Position numbers and translations under genes: made by a program. Under the pieces are notes generated by a model. The model had not been told where the DNA came from and did not search any database. It was given only the letters and a program-made list of their open reading frames with translations. DNA of 64,000 bases from Escherichia phage PSa2. The stretch lies in sequence record OL770310, one strand, 5' to 3'. Shown in pieces: positions 1-31,679 of the stretch; position 1 is the first letter of the stretch; every line of letters begins with the position of its first letter.

Positions 1-209
1 AGAGCTGTCTCTTTAATAGACTCCCACTGTTTGGGGTCTTTCAGAGGAAGTTCCTCTTCTTCAAACAGGTCTGTTCCATTTTCACTAACATCCCAGTTTT
101 CTTCCATGATTTCTTCTAGAAGCTCATGTTTAGAAAGACGAGTGTAGTCTCTAGCAGACTTGTGAGTGCTAGCACGGTTAAAATCATTCTTTGCAACGAA
201 GTTACGCAT
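1..209 (-). CDS. hypothetical protein, partial (N-terminus in window, continues past left edge)
   Basis: Manual reverse translation from ATG (complement of 207..209) gives MRNFVAKNDFNRASTHKSARDYTRLSKHELLEEIMEENWDV... with no stop to position 1; GGAG Shine-Dalgarno (SD) upstream at 213..216. Confidence 0.4.
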   Translation of the reverse strand, partial: MRNFVAKNDFNRASTHKSARDYTRLSKHELLEEIMEENWDVSENGTDLFEEEELPLKDPKQWESIKETA

Positions 210-250
210 AGTTTCTCCAAATAAGAGGGGCTTTCGCCCCCTGATTTAAA

Positions 251-466
251 TTACTTGCCAAGCAGTTTAAGGATATTTTCCTTAATAGTTTGAGCAGATT
301 TTTCACTCTTATTGGTTTCAGCCAGTTTCAGAGCGAGTTCTTCCTGCTGTTTCTGAATATCAGCAGCAGTTTTCTGATCAGCTTCAATACGAGCTTGAAG
401 TTCGTCAGTAATAGTGGTAAAGGAAGCAACGATTTCAGTAACGGAACGTGGTTTCTTAGAGAACAT
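251..466 (-). CDS. hypothetical small protein (ORF track 251..523; likely start at internal Met MFSKKPRS)
   Basis: ORF track; the first 19 codons overlap the hairpin at 505..518, so the internal ATG is preferred. Confidence 0.45.
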   Translation of the reverse strand: MFSKKPRSVTEIVASFTTITDELQARIEADQKTAADIQKQQEELALKLAETNKSEKSAQTIKENILKLLGK

Positions 467-526
467 AAAATATCCTTGATTAGTCAGAGAAAGAGTTAGT
501 ATATGGGGCTTTCGCCCCATCAATCA

Positions 527-1051
527 TTACTTCGCTTTACGCTTACGAGCAGGTTTAGCGGATTTAGCGGATTTACGATCAGAAGCACCAGTAAACTTAA
601 TACCGATACCATAGCACAGAGCGCGAACGTTGTCACGGCTATACTCTACCCCGAAGATATTCGGTTTAATGGAGCCAAACTGTCCACGGGATTCACGCAT
701 TACGTCGGCCATTGGCTTACGCTTCTGATTGACTGCTTTTTCGTAGTCTTTCAGAGCCATACCGTTGCGGGCGAACATCTCAGCACCGCCGTTAAAGCTC
801 AGAGTTACCGGTACAGACTTATGACCTTCACCCTTGATGAACACAACCTGCTTAGCAGTTGCGCGAGTAGAGTTCTTGGCCTTCGGCTTCTGGCGAACCG
901 GAGCCGCAGACTTCAGGGCAGTCTGAGCCTGAGCATCAGTAGGATGCTTACGCAGATGACGTTCCAGACGAGCCTTACGATTGGCTTCGGTCTGAGCGAA
1001 AGTTTTAACTGCCGGAGCTGCCTGAGTTTTTGCGTTTTTCTGCTTAGCCAT
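527..1051 (-). CDS. hypothetical basic Lys/Ala-rich protein
   Basis: 174 aa ORF with lysine-rich tails (KAKNSTRATAK, SAKSAKPARKRKAK); no recognisable catalytic motif. Confidence 0.55.
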   Translation of the reverse strand: MAKQKNAKTQAAPAVKTFAQTEANRKARLERHLRKHPTDAQAQTALKSAAPVRQKPKAKNSTRATAKQVVFIKGEGHKSVPVTLSFNGGAEMFARNGMALKDYEKAVNQKRKPMADVMRESRGQFGSIKPNIFGVEYSRDNVRALCYGIGIKFTGASDRKSAKSAKPARKRKAK

Positions 1052-1134
1052 TATTTGTTTTCCTTTTTGTTGATCAATTTATGAGATATATTATACGAAA
1101 TTTTGAAGCGTTTAGCAAATGAATTTTTTAAAAA

Positions 1135-1413
1135 TTATCTGCCGATCATCTTAGCTTGTTCCTCACTGAAAACGTACTGATAACCACCCTTGTTATATGC
1201 AGGAGCAGTACACAGTTTCTTGCGCTCAATTTCTTCTTGAGCTTTGCGTTCCCTTTCGGCTAATTCTTCATCTAGGTAAACTAGACGTTGCTCCGGAGGT
1301 GGTGGAAGCCTAGTTTCTGGCTCACCAATATTTGCCTTTCTGATCTGACGCGGAGATTGTGCGCGTTTTCTCAAAGGTTTAAATCCTAATGAATTTGAGT
1401 TGTAAATTCGCAT
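1135..1413 (-). CDS. hypothetical protein
   Basis: 92 aa ORF in a co-oriented gene string. Confidence 0.45.
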   Translation of the reverse strand: MRIYNSNSLGFKPLRKRAQSPRQIRKANIGEPETRLPPPPEQRLVYLDEELAERERKAQEEIERKKLCTAPAYNKGGYQYVFSEEQAKMIGR

Positions 1414-1978: not shown

Positions 1979-2235
1979 TCAATTTCAAGCCAAAAACCTT
2001 CACGCTGCTCATACTTAGCTTCCACAACATAACCTAGTTTACTAAGTTTTTGCATGACGCTATTTCTAGCGTTTTCTGAGTATTCAGTCAGTCCCTGGAT
2101 GTGGCAATTAAATTCTTTATCTTTGATGGCTTTGTCAATCTCTACGGCAATAAGTGACTCTAAGTCAATTACTTCCTTTTTAATACTAGCAATAGTATTT
2201 TGTTTTGCTTCTAAAGCAGATAAAAGAATAGACAT
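1966..2235 (-). CDS. hypothetical protein
   Basis: 89 aa ORF, start/stop coupled to neighbours. Confidence 0.45.
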   Translation of the reverse strand: MSILLSALEAKQNTIASIKKEVIDLESLIAVEIDKAIKDKEFNCHIQGLTEYSENARNSVMQKLSKLGYVVEAKYEQREGFWLEIDWSK

Positions 2236-2237
2236 AT

Positions 2238-2816
2238 TTATTCTCCAATTACTAAAACATCATGTTGGGAAGATACACCACACATATAATCTGCACAATG
2301 CGTAAAAGCCAGATCAATGATTTCAAATATATCATCTACATCTAAATCTGTGGCTCGACAATCCGCAATAGCTAAACCTGTACGAATACTGGAAAGTACA
2401 TCTTCTCCTCCACAGCCTACACCGGCATATTCAACTTCTAGAATAGAAGCATTAGATTGGAAAATAAAGATTCTTCCTTTGTAGAGCATAATAAATTGTC
2501 CCAGATTAGGTTCAGCATATTTTTCATTTTTCTTTTCGCCAAAGTCTTTCTGGTTAAACATATCACGTAATTTAGGTACTATTTCCGTATATAAATATTT
2601 ATCATCGGAAATATCTGCTAAACGTGGTGGTACAGTAAAGCTATGCTCTAGTAATTGTCCCATGTAGAAGGAACTAGTGTATCCGAAGTACAAATCATCA
2701 GAGATTTTGAATACTTTCGGATTTTTAACCAGCAGTTTCGTATAGCCATTAGAACCCATACGATCACCAGCTAAGTATACTTTATCTTTATATTTAAATG
2801 CTACTATGGCTGTCAT
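2238..2816 (-). CDS. HslV/proteasome-like Ntn-hydrolase fold protein
   Basis: N-terminus MTAIVAFKYKDKVYLAGDRMGSNGYT...KVFKISDDLYFGYTSS resembles HslV (TTIVSVRRNG.VVIAGDGQ...KVRRLYNDKVIAGFAGG) with Thr at position 2 as candidate nucleophile. Pattern match only. Confidence 0.45.
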   Translation of the reverse strand: MTAIVAFKYKDKVYLAGDRMGSNGYTKLLVKNPKVFKISDDLYFGYTSSFYMGQLLEHSFTVPPRLADISDDKYLYTEIVPKLRDMFNQKDFGEKKNEKYAEPNLGQFIMLYKGRIFIFQSNASILEVEYAGVGCGGEDVLSSIRTGLAIADCRATDLDVDDIFEIIDLAFTHCADYMCGVSSQHDVLVIGE

Positions 2817-2914
2817 TATTAAATCCTTCTGTCAAATTAGAAGTATATTATATTTGAATTTCACTCAGTAAGCAAATGAAATTTAAATATAATAGCCCCG
2901 AAGGGCTATTTGAA

Positions 2915-5798: not shown

Positions 5799-5904
5799 TG
5801 ATTTTCCTCTTTCTCACTATTTCAGGAATATTATAGCAAATCTGGTAGCGATTAGCAAGTAAAATTTCAAAGAAAAAGGAGACCCGAAGATCTCCTTGTT
5901 TTTA

Positions 5905-15423: not shown

Positions 15424-18213
15424 GTGTTCTCAATCCTACAAGGCCACGCAGGATTTTCCAGAGATAAAGCTACTGGCATCTGGAAAGAGATCAAAGTGGA
15501 AGATTATACCTTTGCAAAGCGATTCTCTAAAGAGCATCCAGAAGGTAAACCAGCTTCCATGCCCTTCAAATTTGATGTACTTGAAGAACTTGACCCGCAA
15601 AACCTTGCTGAAATGTTACCTATCATGCGTCGTCTTACCAAAGACCCGCATATTGTAGCTATTCGGGGTAAATGTCTAGCTCCAAAAGATAATGTGCGTC
15701 GTACCAGGGGAAACTTTAACGTATCCAATCCTAGTCATATTATTGCTATGGACGTGGATGGTATTGTAGATACTGGTGGCTATGACAAGTTTAATCTTGT
15801 TGGCATGGCACGTCATATTATTAAGATGTTGAATAGTATTAGTGAGGATATGTTTCCTCTTGATGCAGGGTTTATTGCCCATGCATCGTCTTCGGCTGGG
15901 TTAAAACCAGGTATCCGAATGCACTTAATGCTAGAATCTAATGTCAAGGTAACGCAGGGACAGTTAAAGTTCTTATTTACATCTATCAATGATAGTAGTA
16001 AGCAAAAGTACGGCTTTGATATTGCTGACTTAGCTTATTATTCTTCTGTTCAGCTTCACTATTTCGCAGATCCCTTATTTGATGATGGTATAGTCGATCC
16101 GTTTAAAGCGGAGAATAAACCACGTCTTGTGTATGTTAAGGGTTCGAAGGTAAATCTACCTAATAACCTAGTTGACTTTGAAACAACTAGAGGTGAGTTT
16201 AAAGAAGAGTTCTACTCCTTACTTGACCAAATTAAAGGCAAGAAGGCTGCATCTGATAAAGTGGAAGAAACCATCAGCGAACTAGAAGAAGCTGAGGATG
16301 GAGTGTACCTGCGTATTATTCCAAAACTTTATCACAGAGCGTTAGAAGATGGTGTTGACTTTACGTGGTTAGAACGTGAGATTAAACCAGCTTTATCTGA
16401 GTATATTGCGACTAAAGATAATAGTCGTAATATTCAAGATTACTTTAATAACGGTCGTAAGCAGGCTCTCAAAGCCTTTGTAAATAACTCCAAACGTGAG
16501 ATTCCACCAAACTTAAAAGGTGTACCATTAAAACGTCTAGACACAGATTCTCCACCAGAAGTTCCATACCTGAAAATTAACATTGTACCACCAAAAGGAC
16601 ATTTAACATTTGTTAAGGCAAGTCTTGGTACGGGTAAAACTACAGCAGTAACTAAGTGGCTAGATGCAGGTGTTCTTCCAGGGAACTTTATTGCAATCAC
16701 AAATACTAGAGCACTTGTATCTTCTAACGCGAAGAAATTCGGTGCTGGCCAGTATGATAAGTCAGTTGATATGCTGAACTTCAAACGTGGTGCTATTGAT
16801 CGTATGTCTTCAACTATTCACTCTATCCATAAGTTCAAGAGCTTTGTGGGTCAGATTGATACGATCTTTATTGATGAATGTGACGCAGTAATGAATGATC
16901 TGTTATTCGCTCCGGTTGTTAAAAACCGTCGTGAATGTATTCAGGTTCTTCGTGATATCCTTATTACTGCTAAAACTGTTATCTTATCTGATGGTGATAT
17001 CAGTGCAGAAACGATTGAAGCCTATGGTTCTTTGATTGATTTTGATAAACCAGTTGCATTCTATAATCATCACCGTAAAATGCTGGCGAAAGCTCACGCT
17101 TATGAATTCCCTGACGAATCCAGTATTTGGGTTGCACTTCAAACATCTCTAGAGATGGGTGAGAAGTCAATCCTAGTATCTGACTGTGGACCAGATGAAC
17201 TGAATGAAAAGGGAATGGCGTTACGTCGTAATACTGGTGCGTTAGTTAAAGAAATTCACTCAAACTCTACGTCTGATATAGATATCCGACGTATTCTGGA
17301 TTATACAACTAATGAGCTAATTGATCAACAGATTGATTGTTTGTTATGTAGTCCATCTGTAACGAGTGGTGTTGACTTTAACTATTTTGATAACGTATTC
17401 GTAATCACTAGAACCTCAAACCAAGCGCCAAACATGCGTTTTCAAGCAATCAGGCGCGACCGTGGTGCTCAGAACATTTATTATTTTATTGATAAATCTA
17501 CGAGTGGATTCTCTGCGGGTTCCGAGCAATATAATATTGACGAGGGTTGGATTGAGTTAGCTCAGCAACTGTACGCACGCCGTCGTGAGCTGGAATCTAG
17601 AAACTATACTAGTACTTTGCGCTATTATCTGCTTGATCAGGGTGCAACTATCGATATTTTCAGCGAAAGCTGGGGAACTATCGAAGGTGCAGGAAAAGAG
17701 TATACAGAAGAGCGAATCAAAGCTATTTTGCACTCAACTCCTGAATATTGTGCACCACGTCATGCAGATGCCTATGAAGCCAAGTTACTTCTGGTTCGCT
17801 ATTATCATCTGGATTCTATTAAAGATGTAACAGTGGAACACGTTGAACAGTATATCAAGGATAAACCAAACGATAGAGCTGCATTCTTCCATAAGATGCA
17901 CGAGATGTTCTGGGAAGATATTAAGAAGTGTTCAAATGTAACAATCAAACCGTTTATTGAAGCTCTTAAGAATAAGAAGAAGGATTTCTTCCTTAAGACA
18001 GGTCAGAGCGCTAACCCAAAATATGCTCGTATGTATCTTGGCATGATGGGTATCGGTAAAGATCTGGATACGGAAAAGATTGTGGACTGGTACAGAACTT
18101 ACTGTAAGATCGAATGTATGCCGATTCCAGTTAAGTTTATGACAGATGAAGAACGTCAGATGCATGAGGAAGCTCTTGCTGAATTGGGGGCTAGAAATGA
18201 CAGCGAAGAATAA
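15424..18213 (+). CDS. SF2 helicase, replication-origin-binding-protein type (ORF track start 15301; GTG 15424 with TAGGAG SD preferred)
   Basis: Walker A KASLGTGKTTAV, Walker B IFIDECDAV; ~930-970 aa. First ~40 track codons are low complexity. Confidence 0.7.
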   Translation: MFSILQGHAGFSRDKATGIWKEIKVEDYTFAKRFSKEHPEGKPASMPFKFDVLEELDPQNLAEMLPIMRRLTKDPHIVAIRGKCLAPKDNVRRTRGNFNVSNPSHIIAMDVDGIVDTGGYDKFNLVGMARHIIKMLNSISEDMFPLDAGFIAHASSSAGLKPGIRMHLMLESNVKVTQGQLKFLFTSINDSSKQKYGFDIADLAYYSSVQLHYFADPLFDDGIVDPFKAENKPRLVYVKGSKVNLPNNLVDFETTRGEFKEEFYSLLDQIKGKKAASDKVEETISELEEAEDGVYLRIIPKLYHRALEDGVDFTWLEREIKPALSEYIATKDNSRNIQDYFNNGRKQALKAFVNNSKREIPPNLKGVPLKRLDTDSPPEVPYLKINIVPPKGHLTFVKASLGTGKTTAVTKWLDAGVLPGNFIAITNTRALVSSNAKKFGAGQYDKSVDMLNFKRGAIDRMSSTIHSIHKFKSFVGQIDTIFIDECDAVMNDLLFAPVVKNRRECIQVLRDILITAKTVILSDGDISAETIEAYGSLIDFDKPVAFYNHHRKMLAKAHAYEFPDESSIWVALQTSLEMGEKSILVSDCGPDELNEKGMALRRNTGALVKEIHSNSTSDIDIRRILDYTTNELIDQQIDCLLCSPSVTSGVDFNYFDNVFVITRTSNQAPNMRFQAIRRDRGAQNIYYFIDKSTSGFSAGSEQYNIDEGWIELAQQLYARRRELESRNYTSTLRYYLLDQGATIDIFSESWGTIEGAGKEYTEERIKAILHSTPEYCAPRHADAYEAKLLLVRYYHLDSIKDVTVEHVEQYIKDKPNDRAAFFHKMHEMFWEDIKKCSNVTIKPFIEALKNKKKDFFLKTGQSANPKYARMYLGMMGIGKDLDTEKIVDWYRTYCKIECMPIPVKFMTDEERQMHEEALAELGARNDSEE

Positions 18214-23479: not shown

Positions 23480-23511
23480 AAGGGGAGGGGGCTATGCTCC
23501 TTCCCCTTTTT
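23480..23511 (+). terminator. rho-independent terminator (imperfect stem)
   Basis: AAGGGGA...TCCCCTT stem followed by TTTTT; a second GAAA-loop hairpin GCACGAAAGCGTGC at 23521..23534. Confidence 0.5.
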
Positions 23512-23544
23512 GCATTTAGAAGGCACGAAAGCGTGCAAAGGAGA

Positions 23545-25017
23545 ATGACCTTGTTTAACGTGCAAGCTGTAGTGTTGAAGATGCTTCTCGCTTCTGAACA
23601 GAAGCAAATAGCATTGGAAACATTCTCAAAACTGCATAAAGATCATTTTAATGACGCTTTCTCCTCAATTTACCAAGCCGTCCAGAATTATTATAAGAAA
23701 TATAACGCAATGCCGTCCATTGACGCACTGATGCTTGAGGCCAATAGGAACGCCCGCCTTTCTCAAGCTCTTGTCGTCTTAGCTAACACTCAAATTCCAG
23801 AAGTGAGCATGGAACAGGCGCTTGAAGTCCTAGAAGCCGAATATACACAGGATCTATTCCTGAAACTTCTAGAAACAGACGTGCTTCAAGATTTAACAAT
23901 GCTGGATCAGGGAGAAATTCTCAACCGAGTTGCCTCCCTTCACTTAAAATTAGAAGAGAAAGTAACGAATACTGGAAAGGTATTCAACGCAGACACAATG
24001 CGTATTTTCCAGAGAGAAGAAGATACCAAACTGAACTTGATCGCTCTTGGTATTTGTAATGAGTTCGACGCTCAAATTGGTTTAGCTCGCACAGAAACGT
24101 TACTGCTTGGTGGTTGGCGTGGTACTGGTAAATCCATTATCTGTTCAAACATACAGGTTCAGCAATATTTGAATGGAGACATTGCTCCATATTTCTCAAT
24201 TGAGATGAAGGAGCACGAAGTGTTTAGACGTAATCTGGCTATGTTAGCTGGAGTATCTGCATTAGCAATGCGTAATAACACTCTTGAAGGTGCTGCTCTG
24301 TTGAGATTAGCCAGAACTAGGGCTAGAATGTTTAATGGTGGTGAAGAGCTTTTCGATAACTTCGTTAAGCAATACACTATGGCTAAAATGAGTGACTTCT
24401 ATGATATGGAAAGTAAACTCCTTGAAGGCTATGAGCTTCACACTCCTATGATCATCATTTACGATCCTGAACTGTCTATTACGACGGTTGACGTAGAATT
24501 AAATAAACTAGTTGCTAAATATGGTGATAAGGTTACTGTAGCTCTTCTAGACTATATTAACCAAACAAGACTTCCAGATTCAAAGACCATTGACATGTAT
24601 GACTGGAAAGAACAGATGGTTGTTAGTTCATCTTTCAAATCTATCTGCCAGAAACATAACGTGGCTGGTGTTGCCCCTTACCAGATTGACCAAGATGGTA
24701 GAACGCGTATGTCTAAAGGGATTCTTGATTCCGCAGATATGGCTGCTAATCTTAACGCTGCAAAAGCTGATAATGGTCAAGGTGCTATTATGTTTGATTT
24801 CGTTAAGACTCGTTCCTCTGATAGTGTGAAGTTTATGCCTAAGATGAACTGGGAAACTCTACGAATGGATAACACTACCAACCTAGCAATGGAAGATATT
24901 GCGCAAATGGAAGCTGAGTTCGTTATTCCTATTGAAAAGGATAAACCAGCTCAACCTAAACGTGCTAAGAAAGACAAAGCTGAAAATTCAACAGGTGAAC
25001 AGGCCAGCGATATATGA
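23545..25017 (+). CDS. DnaB-like replicative helicase (track start 23494; AAGGAG-supported start 23545)
   Basis: RecA-fold P-loop GGWRGTGKS; track N-terminus overlaps terminator hairpins. Confidence 0.75.
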   Translation: MTLFNVQAVVLKMLLASEQKQIALETFSKLHKDHFNDAFSSIYQAVQNYYKKYNAMPSIDALMLEANRNARLSQALVVLANTQIPEVSMEQALEVLEAEYTQDLFLKLLETDVLQDLTMLDQGEILNRVASLHLKLEEKVTNTGKVFNADTMRIFQREEDTKLNLIALGICNEFDAQIGLARTETLLLGGWRGTGKSIICSNIQVQQYLNGDIAPYFSIEMKEHEVFRRNLAMLAGVSALAMRNNTLEGAALLRLARTRARMFNGGEELFDNFVKQYTMAKMSDFYDMESKLLEGYELHTPMIIIYDPELSITTVDVELNKLVAKYGDKVTVALLDYINQTRLPDSKTIDMYDWKEQMVVSSSFKSICQKHNVAGVAPYQIDQDGRTRMSKGILDSADMAANLNAAKADNGQGAIMFDFVKTRSSDSVKFMPKMNWETLRMDNTTNLAMEDIAQMEAEFVIPIEKDKPAQPKRAKKDKAENSTGEQASDI

Positions 25018-31644: not shown

Positions 31645-31652
31645 TAAACCAA

Positions 31653-31679
31653 GGGGAGCTACGGCTCCCTTTCTTTTTA
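31653..31679 (+). terminator. rho-independent terminator
   Basis: GGGAGC-TACG-GCTCCC hairpin followed by TTTCTTTTT. Confidence 0.65.

What the first reader, a model, noticed from the sequence alone, without database searches (positions are those of the whole stretch)
227..518. Identical GNRA-tetraloop hairpins between minus-strand early genes
GGGGCGAAAGCCCC (minus-strand sense) occurs twice, at 227..240 and 505..518, each in an intergenic gap and followed by only a weak U-tract. A similar GAAA-loop hairpin (GCACGAAAGCGTGC) is at 23521..23534. These look like conserved RNA processing or stability elements rather than simple terminators.
Basis: seen in the sequence. Interest (0 to 1): 0.35.

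Follow-up and report, generated by a model that had tools for sequence, protein, structure and literature searches.

The report
Twin hairpins bracketing an optional phage gene
Two identical small RNA hairpins sit between early genes of a T5-like phage, most likely as leaky stop or stability signals inside one operon, and they bracket a small gene that some relatives lack, which is useful detail but ordinary phage biology.

Summary
The two hairpins are real. GGGGCGAAAGCCCC, read in gene sense, lies at 227-240 and 505-518 and nowhere else in the roughly 122-kb genome.

The window is a T5-like Epseptimavirus. Both hairpins lie inside the early operon driven by the P-H207 promoter. They bracket an optional 71-aa gene. 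T5 itself has one hairpin and no such gene, and other relatives have two genes between the two hairpins.

Across about 35 relatives the five G-C pairs never change. A sixth pair is always kept, and is G·U in hairpin 2, which works only in gene-sense RNA. A seventh pair covaries. The loop is free, and flipped (reverse-complement) forms occur, so GNRA is not required.

Hairpin 1 has no U-tract and hairpin 2 a borderline one. Neither leaves room for a downstream promoter.

My best reading is sense-strand RNA hairpins that act as leaky terminators or 3'-end stabilisers, and whose repeated cores also mark where the gene cassette is lost or gained. This resembles the stem-loops of T4 PeSL cassettes but without the promoter. 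No transcript data exist. It is a new member of a known kind and of low to moderate interest.

The parts
503..520 (-). Hairpin 1: AUGGGGC-GAAA-GCCCCAU, a 7-bp stem with a C(GAAA)G tetraloop. It starts 6 nt after the stop codon of the DUF7022 gene and ends 36 nt before the ATG of the 71-aa gene. Its tail, AUAUACUAAC, has no U-tract.
   Evidence: (-13.8 kcal/mol)
226..241 (-). Hairpin 2: GGGGGC-GAAA-GCCCCU, five G-C pairs plus a G·U pair. It starts 9 nt after the stop codon of the 71-aa gene and ends 7 nt before the GGAG ribosome-binding site of the T5.088 homologue. Its tail, CUUAUUUGG, is a weak U-tract.
   Evidence: (flagged as terminator-like)
251..466 (-). Optional cassette gene encoding a 71-aa predicted coiled-coil protein (PHROG 2380, function unknown; often mis-annotated as 'tail length tape-measure protein'). 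It is absent from T5 and 8 other sampled genomes, and is accompanied by a second gene in Stitch, SSP1 and UTK0009.
527..1051 (-). First gene of the operon: T5.089 homologue, 174 aa, family DUF7022 / PHROG 4516, function unknown.
1090..1118 (-). Sigma-70 promoter TTGCTA-N17-TATAAT. It lies where T5 has the annotated strong early promoter P-H207, directly upstream of T5.089.
1..209 (-). 5' part of the T5.088 homologue, cut by the window edge. It is the gene served by read-through past hairpin 2.
23523..23536 (+). It is weak, lies in a plus-strand 5' leader just after a strong terminator, and is not part of this feature.

Best explanation
The two elements are short, very stable hairpins formed in the gene-sense early mRNA of a T5-like phage. 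Both lie inside the operon that starts at the strong P-H207-type promoter. That operon runs: DUF7022 gene, hairpin 1, optional 71-aa gene, hairpin 2, T5.088 homologue, T5.087 homologue. I infer that each hairpin acts as a leaky terminator or attenuator. I also infer that it acts as a barrier to 3'-to-5' exonucleases. The upstream message segment would then end or persist at the hairpin while some polymerases read through to express the downstream genes. This would set graded expression along the operon. There are two copies because each cistron upstream of T5.088 carries its own 3' hairpin. The identical 14-nt cores bracket the optional gene and are the likely crossover points for its loss or gain. 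Shown: the existence, position, conservation and pairing pattern of the hairpins, their poor terminator tails, the lack of promoter space, and the cassette architecture. Inferred: attenuation, stabilisation, and recombination at the cores.
For: Context: the window is 99% identical to Salmonella phage BD13, an Epseptimavirus. The T5 annotation places P-H207 directly upstream of T5.089 and marks no promoter between T5.089 and T5.088. Only 38 nt and 17 nt separate the hairpins from the next ATG, so no promoter fits.

Conservation: the stem GGGGC/GCCCC is invariant in 61 of 61 hairpins. A sixth pair is always formed (AU 14, GU 6, UA 1 among distinct variants). A seventh pair covaries (UA 8, GC 3, AU 1). 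Of all cells, 93.9% are paired, against 27-67% for slid controls.

Sense-strand RNA: the G·U pair in all 26 copies of hairpin 2, and one metagenomic stem variant (C to U, giving U·G), pair only in the gene sense.

Hairpin 1 flanks: TA...TA in Tequintavirus versus AT...AT in Epseptimavirus. In three one-hairpin genomes a T-to-G change restores pairing across the junction.

Distant relatives: a GC hairpin of different sequence holds the same place, upstream of the T5.088-like gene, in My1, Slocum and GZ8, 6-12 nt before that gene's ribosome-binding site.

Terminator tails: tail scores are 1.6-2.3 for hairpin 1, the T5 single hairpin, My1 and GZ8. Hairpin 2 scores 2.9-3.5. The clear terminators of the same window (those followed by T-tracts) score 3.8-5.5.

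Cassette: T5-type genomes have one hairpin whose left flank matches hairpin 1 and whose right flank matches hairpin 2. Other genomes carry one or two genes between two hairpins.

Precedent: polyG/polyC stem-loops of T4-type PeSL cassettes terminate transcription in vivo and flank genes that relatives lack (PMC2839356).
Against: No transcript 3'-end, Northern or reporter data exist for this site in any T5-like phage. I found none in the library. None of the T5 annotations examined here marks a terminator at this site. The core stem never varies, so it gives no covariation evidence. The covariation rests on two outer pairs and few independent events. Sequence alone cannot separate attenuation from stabilisation. 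The scatter of cassette-free genomes on the flank trees could come from ordinary homologous exchange of alleles rather than repeated hairpin-to-hairpin deletion. The high-identity block around the cassette extends about 60 nt past hairpin 2, so hairpin 2 is not a clean mosaic boundary.
Confidence: 0.55

Rival explanations
1. They are ordinary, efficient Rho-independent terminators that end the P-H207 transcript after each gene.
For: The stem is GC-rich and very stable. The simple scanner flags hairpin 2 as terminator-like, with 5 T in 8, and its d-score is slightly positive. In a sample of unrelated viral contigs the same 14-mer is followed by a T-tract in 40% of cases. The Slocum orthologue also scores positive.
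Against: Hairpin 1 and its equivalents in Tequintavirus, My1 and GZ8 have no U-tract, with tail scores of 1.6-2.3 against 3.8-5.5 for real terminators of the same genome. No promoter fits between either hairpin and the next gene, so efficient termination would silence T5.088 and T5.087. None of the T5 annotations examined here calls a terminator at this site, although they mark terminators elsewhere.
Confidence: 0.15
2. They matter mainly at the DNA level. They would be short palindromes that act as recombination or template-switch hot spots marking module junctions, with no real RNA function.
For: The hairpins sit exactly at the junctions of the 0-, 1- and 2-gene architectures. Loop flip-flops occur: GAAA/TTTC and AGAA/TTCT are both present as reverse-complement pairs. 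The cassette gene has about a third of the synonymous divergence of its neighbours (dS 0.25-0.54 against about 1.1). Cassette-free genomes are scattered among cassette-bearing ones. The PeSL precedent applies here too.
Against: A pure by-product would not hold ten stem positions invariant while the flanks diverge. It would not keep a G·U pair that works in only one strand, or restore outer pairing after the deletion. Distant genera keep a hairpin of different sequence at this position even where no cassette polymorphism is seen. There are only two copies per genome. The 71-aa gene is found only at this locus, so there is no sign of mobility. A 5-7 bp stem is short for cruciform extrusion (my own knowledge).
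Confidence: 0.12
3. They are binding sites (operators) for a phage or host RNA-binding protein that controls translation or decay of the adjacent cistrons.
For: The hairpin always ends 6-12 nt upstream of the ribosome-binding site of the T5.088-like gene in four genera. The hairpin 2 loop is GAAA in 24 of 26 genomes. Known phage translational operators are small hairpins next to ribosome-binding sites, for example those of T4 gp43 and RegA (my own knowledge).
Against: Loop sequences vary freely at hairpin 1 (five variants, including flipped ones). They differ completely in My1 (GUCAU) and GZ8 (UUAAUU). This argues against sequence-specific recognition. No candidate protein is known.
Confidence: 0.08
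4. They are RNase III processing sites.
For: They are intercistronic stem-loops in phage early mRNA, as in T7 (my own knowledge).
Against: The stems are only 6-7 bp. RNase III needs roughly two helical turns of double-stranded RNA (my own knowledge). No Rfam family matches.
Confidence: 0.02

Closest known systems
PeSL (promoter-early stem-loop) cassettes of T4-type phages (Arbiol et al. 2010, PMC2839356; Comeau et al. 2014, PMC4122927)
   Same: Both have a stem-loop built from a G-run followed by a C-run, placed between small early genes of unknown function. In both, two copies flank a gene that close relatives lack, and those relatives carry a single copy at the junction (RB49 ORFan192 versus phi1). 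The proposed roles are also the same: attenuator of upstream transcription and recombination site.
   Different: No sigma-70 promoter is fused to the hairpin. By my hand reading of the sequences, the best match is 8/12 here and 9/12 in Tequintavirus, which is background level. The repeat is only 14 nt, not about 100 nt. There are two copies per genome, not about 50. No mini-circles or mobility of the gene are seen.
Intrinsic (Rho-independent) terminators and leaky intra-operon attenuators
   Same: Both have a GC-rich hairpin a few nt after a stop codon. Hairpin 2 has a partial U-tract and a borderline score.
   Different: Hairpin 1 has no U-tract. The stems are half the length of this phage's clear terminators. 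The downstream genes have no promoter of their own.
Intercistronic tetraloop hairpins in phage T4 mRNA (C(UUCG)G hairpins, Tuerk et al. 1988; cited from my own knowledge) and 3' stabiliser hairpins within bacterial operons (for example the REP elements in malEFG; my own knowledge)
   Same: Both are unusually stable tetraloop hairpins with a C-G closing pair, placed between cistrons of a polycistronic message. They are thought to stop 3' exonucleases and to set different levels for neighbouring cistrons.
   Different: The loop here is GAAA rather than UUCG and is not conserved. No decay or end-mapping data exist for the T5 group.
Minute hairpin-loop inversions ('flip-flops') in chloroplast non-coding DNA (Kelchner and Wendel 1996; my own knowledge)
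   Same: In both, the loop is found in both orientations between unchanged inverted-repeat arms. Here the pairs are GAAA/TTTC and AGAA/TTCT.
   Different: The arms are much shorter here (5-7 bp), and the setting is a phage genome rather than plastid DNA.

Membership tests
Intrinsic (Rho-independent) terminator | GC-rich stem-loop | tested here: met
   The hairpins have 5 G-C pairs plus 1-2 outer pairs and fold at -11.6 to -13.8 kcal/mol.
Intrinsic (Rho-independent) terminator | U-rich tract immediately 3' of the stem | tested here: inconclusive
   Hairpin 1 does not meet this (AUAUACUAAC, tail score 2.2). Hairpin 2 is borderline (CUUAUUUGG, 2.9-3.5). Clear terminators of the same window (those followed by T-tracts) score 3.8-5.5. 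The scoring formula was recalled from memory and is used only for ranking.
Intrinsic (Rho-independent) terminator | Ends a transcription unit, and downstream genes have their own promoter | tested here: not met
   Only 38 nt and 17 nt separate the hairpins from the next ATG. No promoter is found in the scan or in the T5 annotations between T5.089 and T5.088.
Intrinsic (Rho-independent) terminator | Measured transcript release at the site | not testable with these tools
   No end-mapping data were found.
PeSL cassette (T4-type phages) | Stem-loop with a G-run/C-run stem in an intergenic region next to genes of unknown function | tested here: met
   The stem is GGGGC/GCCCC and the neighbouring genes are DUF7022, PHROG 2380 and PHROG 4586.
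PeSL cassette (T4-type phages) | Sigma-70 consensus promoter fused to the stem-loop | tested here: not met
   The scan lists no promoter at either hairpin. By my hand reading of the sequences, the best arrangement is ATGATT-N18-TATACT (8/12) here and TAGATA-N18-TACAAT (9/12) in Tequintavirus hairpin 1. That is the level found in shuffled sequence.
PeSL cassette (T4-type phages) | Many copies per genome, clustered in hyperplastic regions | tested here: not met
   There are two copies in the whole BD13-type genome.
PeSL cassette (T4-type phages) | Two copies flank a gene that relatives lack, and those relatives keep one chimeric copy | tested here: met
   T5 and 8 other genomes have one hairpin with the hairpin 1 left flank and the hairpin 2 right flank.
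GNRA tetraloop hairpin | G-N-R-A loop closed by a Watson-Crick pair in the transcribed sense | tested here: met
   Both copies in the window are C(GAAA)G in the gene sense.
GNRA tetraloop hairpin | GNRA pattern maintained across relatives | tested here: not met
   Hairpin 1 has a GNRA loop in 14 of 26 genomes; the rest are AGAA, UUCU or UUUA. Hairpin 2 has one in 25 of 26. The single hairpin has one in 8 of 9. My1 has GUCAU and GZ8 has UUAAUU.
RNase III processing site | About 20 bp or more of double-stranded RNA | tested here: not met
   The stems are 6-7 bp.
Dispersed intergenic repeat (REP/MITE-like) | Many copies spread over the genome | tested here: not met
   Only these two copies exist in about 122 kb. 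T5 region 40-90 kb has one copy plus one annotated UUCG terminator.
Any Rfam family | Match to a curated covariance model | tested here: not met
   Window 1-1300 gives only sub-threshold noise (E 0.95 or higher), and no match overlaps either hairpin.
Intra-operon 3' stabiliser hairpin | Stable stem-loop just 3' of a cistron inside a polycistronic unit | tested here: met
Intra-operon 3' stabiliser hairpin | The upstream mRNA segment is more abundant or longer-lived than the downstream segment, and this depends on the stem | not testable with these tools
   This needs Northern blots, RNA-seq or half-life measurements.

The most novel reading that the evidence does not exclude
Short GC-clamp palindromes in T5-like phages may form a minimal, promoter-less counterpart of the T4 PeSL system. 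On this reading the same 14-nt hairpin punctuates early transcripts. At the DNA level it would also be the crossover and template-switch site that repeatedly deletes, inserts and exchanges small early-gene cassettes and flips its own loop. The same twin-hairpin arrangement around a small gene in an unrelated marine phage contig (L126) would then mean this is a general way for phages to shuffle small genes.
Probability: 0.15. Interest if true: 0.45.

Novelty: new member of a known kind. Interest (0 to 1): 0.25.

Why it matters
If the hairpins act as leaky stops or stabilisers, they explain how one very strong early promoter (P-H207) can give high output of its first gene and lower output of the genes behind it. 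They would also be compact, portable parts for tuning operons. The cassette pattern gives a concrete, testable example of how small accessory genes are lost or gained at a defined junction in T5-like phages, several of which are used for therapy and biocontrol. It also corrects annotations: the 71-aa gene is not a tape-measure protein. None of this changes current understanding of phage gene expression.

Tried and rejected
1. The third hairpin as a family member: rejected. Its coordinates are wrong, its loop is AAAG, it is weak, and it lies in a plus-strand context.

2. A genome-wide repeat family: rejected. There are only two copies in about 122 kb.

3. A T5-specific motif: rejected.

4. Known RNA families: no Rfam match.

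5. A mobile cassette: the 71-aa gene and the second cassette gene occur only at this locus in T5-like contigs. The only other hit is a 30%-identity partial match of the second cassette gene in an unrelated 66-kb viral contig (L055), which I did not follow up.

6. A hairpin-bounded mosaic block: only partly upheld. The cassette gene has low synonymous divergence. However, the high-identity block runs about 60 nt past hairpin 2 into T5.088.

7. Repeated independent deletions: the flank trees scatter the cassette-free genomes, but allele exchange by ordinary recombination explains this equally well.

8. A general test of hairpins at indel boundaries against T5: most other indels are T5 HNH endonuclease genes with no such repeats.

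9. A metagenome scan anchored on the T5.088 start: it gave mostly chance hits and only 7 T5-like loci.

10. A literature search for T5 transcript-end data: nothing found.

11. T5 nick sites: the annotated consensus contains GCGC, which the hairpin lacks.

Full report
**Observation**

The 14-mer GGGGCGAAAGCCCC, read on the minus strand, is present exactly at 227-240 and 505-518. Nothing else in the window comes within two mismatches of it, and shuffled sequence gives 0.09 such matches. Both copies lie in intergenic gaps of minus-strand genes.
- **Hairpin 1** extends to a 7-bp stem, AUGGGGC-GAAA-GCCCCAU, at -13.8 kcal/mol.
- **Hairpin 2** is GGGGGC-GAAA-GCCCCU, with a terminal G·U pair. Its local region folds at -15.7 kcal/mol.
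It is GCACG-AAAG-CGTGC, a weak stem with an AAAG loop. It lies in a plus-strand leader between a strong terminator and the next ribosome-binding site. It is a different thing.

**Context**

The window is a T5-like phage, 99.4% identical to Salmonella phage BD13 of the genus Epseptimavirus. Read in gene sense, the order is:
1. A sigma-70 promoter (1118-1090), at the place where T5 has the annotated strong early promoter P-H207.
2. A 174-aa DUF7022 gene (T5.089 homologue, 1051-527).
3. Hairpin 1.
4. A 71-aa gene (466-251).
5. Hairpin 2.
6. The T5.088 homologue, from 209 to the window edge.

Only 38 nt and 17 nt separate the hairpins from the next start codons. The T5 records place no promoter between T5.089 and T5.088. 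The hairpins are therefore internal to one operon. Those same records mark several terminators elsewhere, but none at this site.

**The hairpins bracket an optional cassette**
- T5 has a single GGGGCGAAAGCCCC between T5.089 and T5.088 and no 71-aa gene.
- Stitch, SSP1 and UTK0009 have two genes between two hairpins.
- The window and most relatives have one gene.
- In the one-hairpin genomes, the left flank matches that of hairpin 1 and the right flank matches that of hairpin 2.
- Of the 27 IMG/VR T5-like loci, 8 have no cassette gene, 18 have one and 1 has two.
- Cassette-free genomes are scattered among cassette-bearing Tequintavirus genomes on trees of either flank. This fits repeated loss or gain, but also ordinary allele exchange.
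- The 71-aa gene occurs only at this locus.
- Its synonymous divergence between the two genera is 0.25-0.54, against about 1.0-1.26 for T5.089 and 0.7-1.2 for T5.088.
- The high-identity block starts about 30 nt after hairpin 1 but runs about 60 nt beyond hairpin 2. The hairpins are therefore not clean mosaic boundaries.

**Conservation and structure**

I compared 61 hairpins from 35 genomes.
- **Core stem:** the ten core stem positions never change.
- **Sixth pair:** on 21 distinct variants, a sixth pair is always formed (AU 14, GU 6, UA 1).
- **Seventh pair:** it covaries (UA 8, GC 3, AU 1, unpaired 9).
- **Pairing overall:** 93.9% of cells pair, against 27-67% when the partner is slid.
- **Hairpin 1 flanks:** TA...TA in Tequintavirus and AT...AT in Epseptimavirus.
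- **One-hairpin genomes:** in three of them a T-to-G change turns a T·C mismatch at the junction into G-C.
- **Strand:** the G·U pair of hairpin 2, and a single metagenomic variant with a U·G closing pair, pair only in the gene sense. This favours an RNA hairpin over a DNA cruciform or an antisense element.
- **Loop:** it is free. Hairpin 1 has GAAA 11, AGAA 6, TTCT 5, GAGA 3 and TTTA 1. Hairpin 2 has GAAA 24, GTAA 1 and TTTC 1. The single hairpin has GAAA 8 and TTTC 1.
- **Loop flips:** TTTC and TTCT are the exact reverse complements of GAAA and AGAA. The loop has therefore flipped between unchanged arms more than once. By my estimate, two such pairs among seven loop types are unlikely by chance (about 0.08 pairs expected). 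A GNRA loop is common but not required.

**Is it a terminator?**

The clear terminators of this window (those followed by T-tracts) have 8-13 bp stems followed by clean T-tracts. I applied a d'Aubenton-Carafa-type tail score. The formula was recalled from memory, so I use it only for ranking.

| Element | Tail score |
|---|---|
| Clear terminators of this window (with T-tracts) | 3.8-5.5 |
| Hairpin 2 | 2.9-3.5 |
| Hairpin 1 | 2.2-2.3 |
| T5 single hairpin | 2.3 |
| GZ8 hairpin | 1.9 |
| Tequintavirus hairpin 1 | 1.8 |
| My1 hairpin | 1.55 |

The simple scanner flags hairpin 2 but not hairpin 1. Hairpin 1 is thus not a canonical terminator, and hairpin 2 is borderline. On the other hand, G-run/C-run stem-loops of T4-type PeSL cassettes reduced reporter expression as strongly as rrnB T1 (PMC2839356). 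Attenuation by such stems without a classical U-tract is therefore plausible.

**Distant relatives and other phages**

DUF7022 homologues at 45% identity sit in the same gene order in three more distant phages. Each keeps a GC hairpin of different sequence upstream of the T5.088-like gene, 6-12 nt before its ribosome-binding site. In My1 and Slocum it follows the DUF7022 gene directly. In GZ8 a further small gene lies between the two.
- **Pectobacterium phage My1:** AUGGGGGC-GUCAU-GCCCCCAU.
- **Serratia phage Slocum:** GGGGCG-GCAA-CGCCCC.
- **Klebsiella phage GZ8:** GCCCCGA-UUAAUU-UCGGGGC.

The position and the stability are conserved, not the sequence.

In the whole BD13-type genome the GGGGC....GCCCC pattern occurs only at these two sites, so it is not a dispersed repeat. 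The 14-mer itself is common in unrelated viral contigs. In the sample, 40% of copies are followed by a T-tract in the GAAA sense and 24% in the opposite sense. It is a generic, repeatedly reinvented hairpin. One unrelated AT-rich contig (L126) has two GGGGGCGAAAGCCCCC copies 274 nt apart around one small gene, again without T-tracts.

**Mechanism**

The best-supported reading is that these are gene-sense RNA hairpins inside the P-H207 operon. They would attenuate read-through, protect the 3' end of the upstream message segment, or both. That would grade expression along the operon. Their identical cores are the likely crossover points for loss or gain of the bracketed gene.

The anatomy, conservation, strand preference, weak tails, lack of promoter space and cassette architecture are shown. 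The effects on transcription, on RNA decay and on recombination are inferred.

The rivals, with my confidence in each:
- **Efficient terminators (0.15):** contradicted by the tails and by the need for read-through.
- **A purely DNA-level junction element (0.12):** contradicted by the invariance, the G·U pair and the conservation of a hairpin in genera without the polymorphism.
- **A protein operator (0.08):** contradicted by the loop variability.
- **RNase III sites (0.02):** the stems are too short.

**Comparison with known systems**

The closest known system is the PeSL cassette of T4-type phages. The stem type, the setting among small early genes and the pattern of two copies around a gene that relatives lack all match. 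The fused promoter, the length of about 100 nt and the high copy number do not match. It therefore works like a PeSL stem-loop but is not a PeSL. It also resembles the tetraloop hairpins between T4 cistrons and 3' stabiliser hairpins within bacterial operons (my own knowledge). No Rfam family matches.

**Verdict**

The elements are conserved and RNA-level, and hairpin 1 is not a plain terminator. The emphasis on GNRA, the RNase III suggestion and the third hairpin are not supported, and the cassette-bracketing arrangement was missed. This is a new member of a known kind, and interest is low to moderate.

Noticed in passing
window 554-571 (minus-strand gene 527-1051): The C-terminal tail of the DUF7022 gene holds an in-frame 9-nt tandem repeat (TTTAGCGGA on the plus strand, AAATCCGCT in gene sense, encoding KSA). 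The window has 2 copies and Stitch has 1. In phage bastian a 39-nt stretch at this place is annotated as a repeat_region. This is a variable-number repeat in a lysine-rich tail.
   Followed up: partly
window 251-466 (-): Many GenBank records annotate the 71-aa gene as 'tail length tape-measure protein'. It is an early-region gene of unknown function (PHROG 2380). It is unusually conserved, with 97-100% amino-acid identity between genera and synonymous divergence about a third of that of its neighbours. This hints at extra constraint or recent exchange.
   Followed up: partly
L126:11902-12189 (IMGVR_UViG_3300017735_000250): An unrelated, 30% G+C viral contig carries two identical GGGGGCGAAAGCCCCC hairpins 274 nt apart. 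Each lies between a stop codon and the next ribosome-binding site, the pair brackets one small gene, and neither has a T-tract. This is the same arrangement as in the window.
   Followed up: partly
window 2006-2841 and 2891-2910: Relative to T5, the window has about 830 extra bases carrying two genes, one of them an HslV-like peptidase, between rnh and thy. Next to this lies a conserved UUCG-loop hairpin (AAUAGCCC-UUCG-GGGCUAUU) followed by a promoter. T5 has the hairpin and promoter but not the two genes.
   Followed up: partly
window about 5823-5828, 18152-18193, 25014-25017: The three T5 HNH homing-endonuclease genes hegH, hegI and hegJ are absent from the window at these junctions. They account for most of the large differences from T5 in the early region.
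   Followed up: no
L032:36784-36797 (T5 76783-76805); window 31651-31672: T5 has one further GGGGC....GCCCC hairpin, with a UUCG loop, annotated as a putative terminator after gene D11. A hairpin of different sequence, AAGGGGAGC-UACG-GCUCCCUUU plus a T-tract, lies at window 31651-31672 and looks like its counterpart in position; I did not map the correspondence.
   Followed up: no
window 23480-23508: This is a strong 13-bp hairpin (-22.6 kcal/mol) with a T-tract on the plus strand.
   Followed up: no
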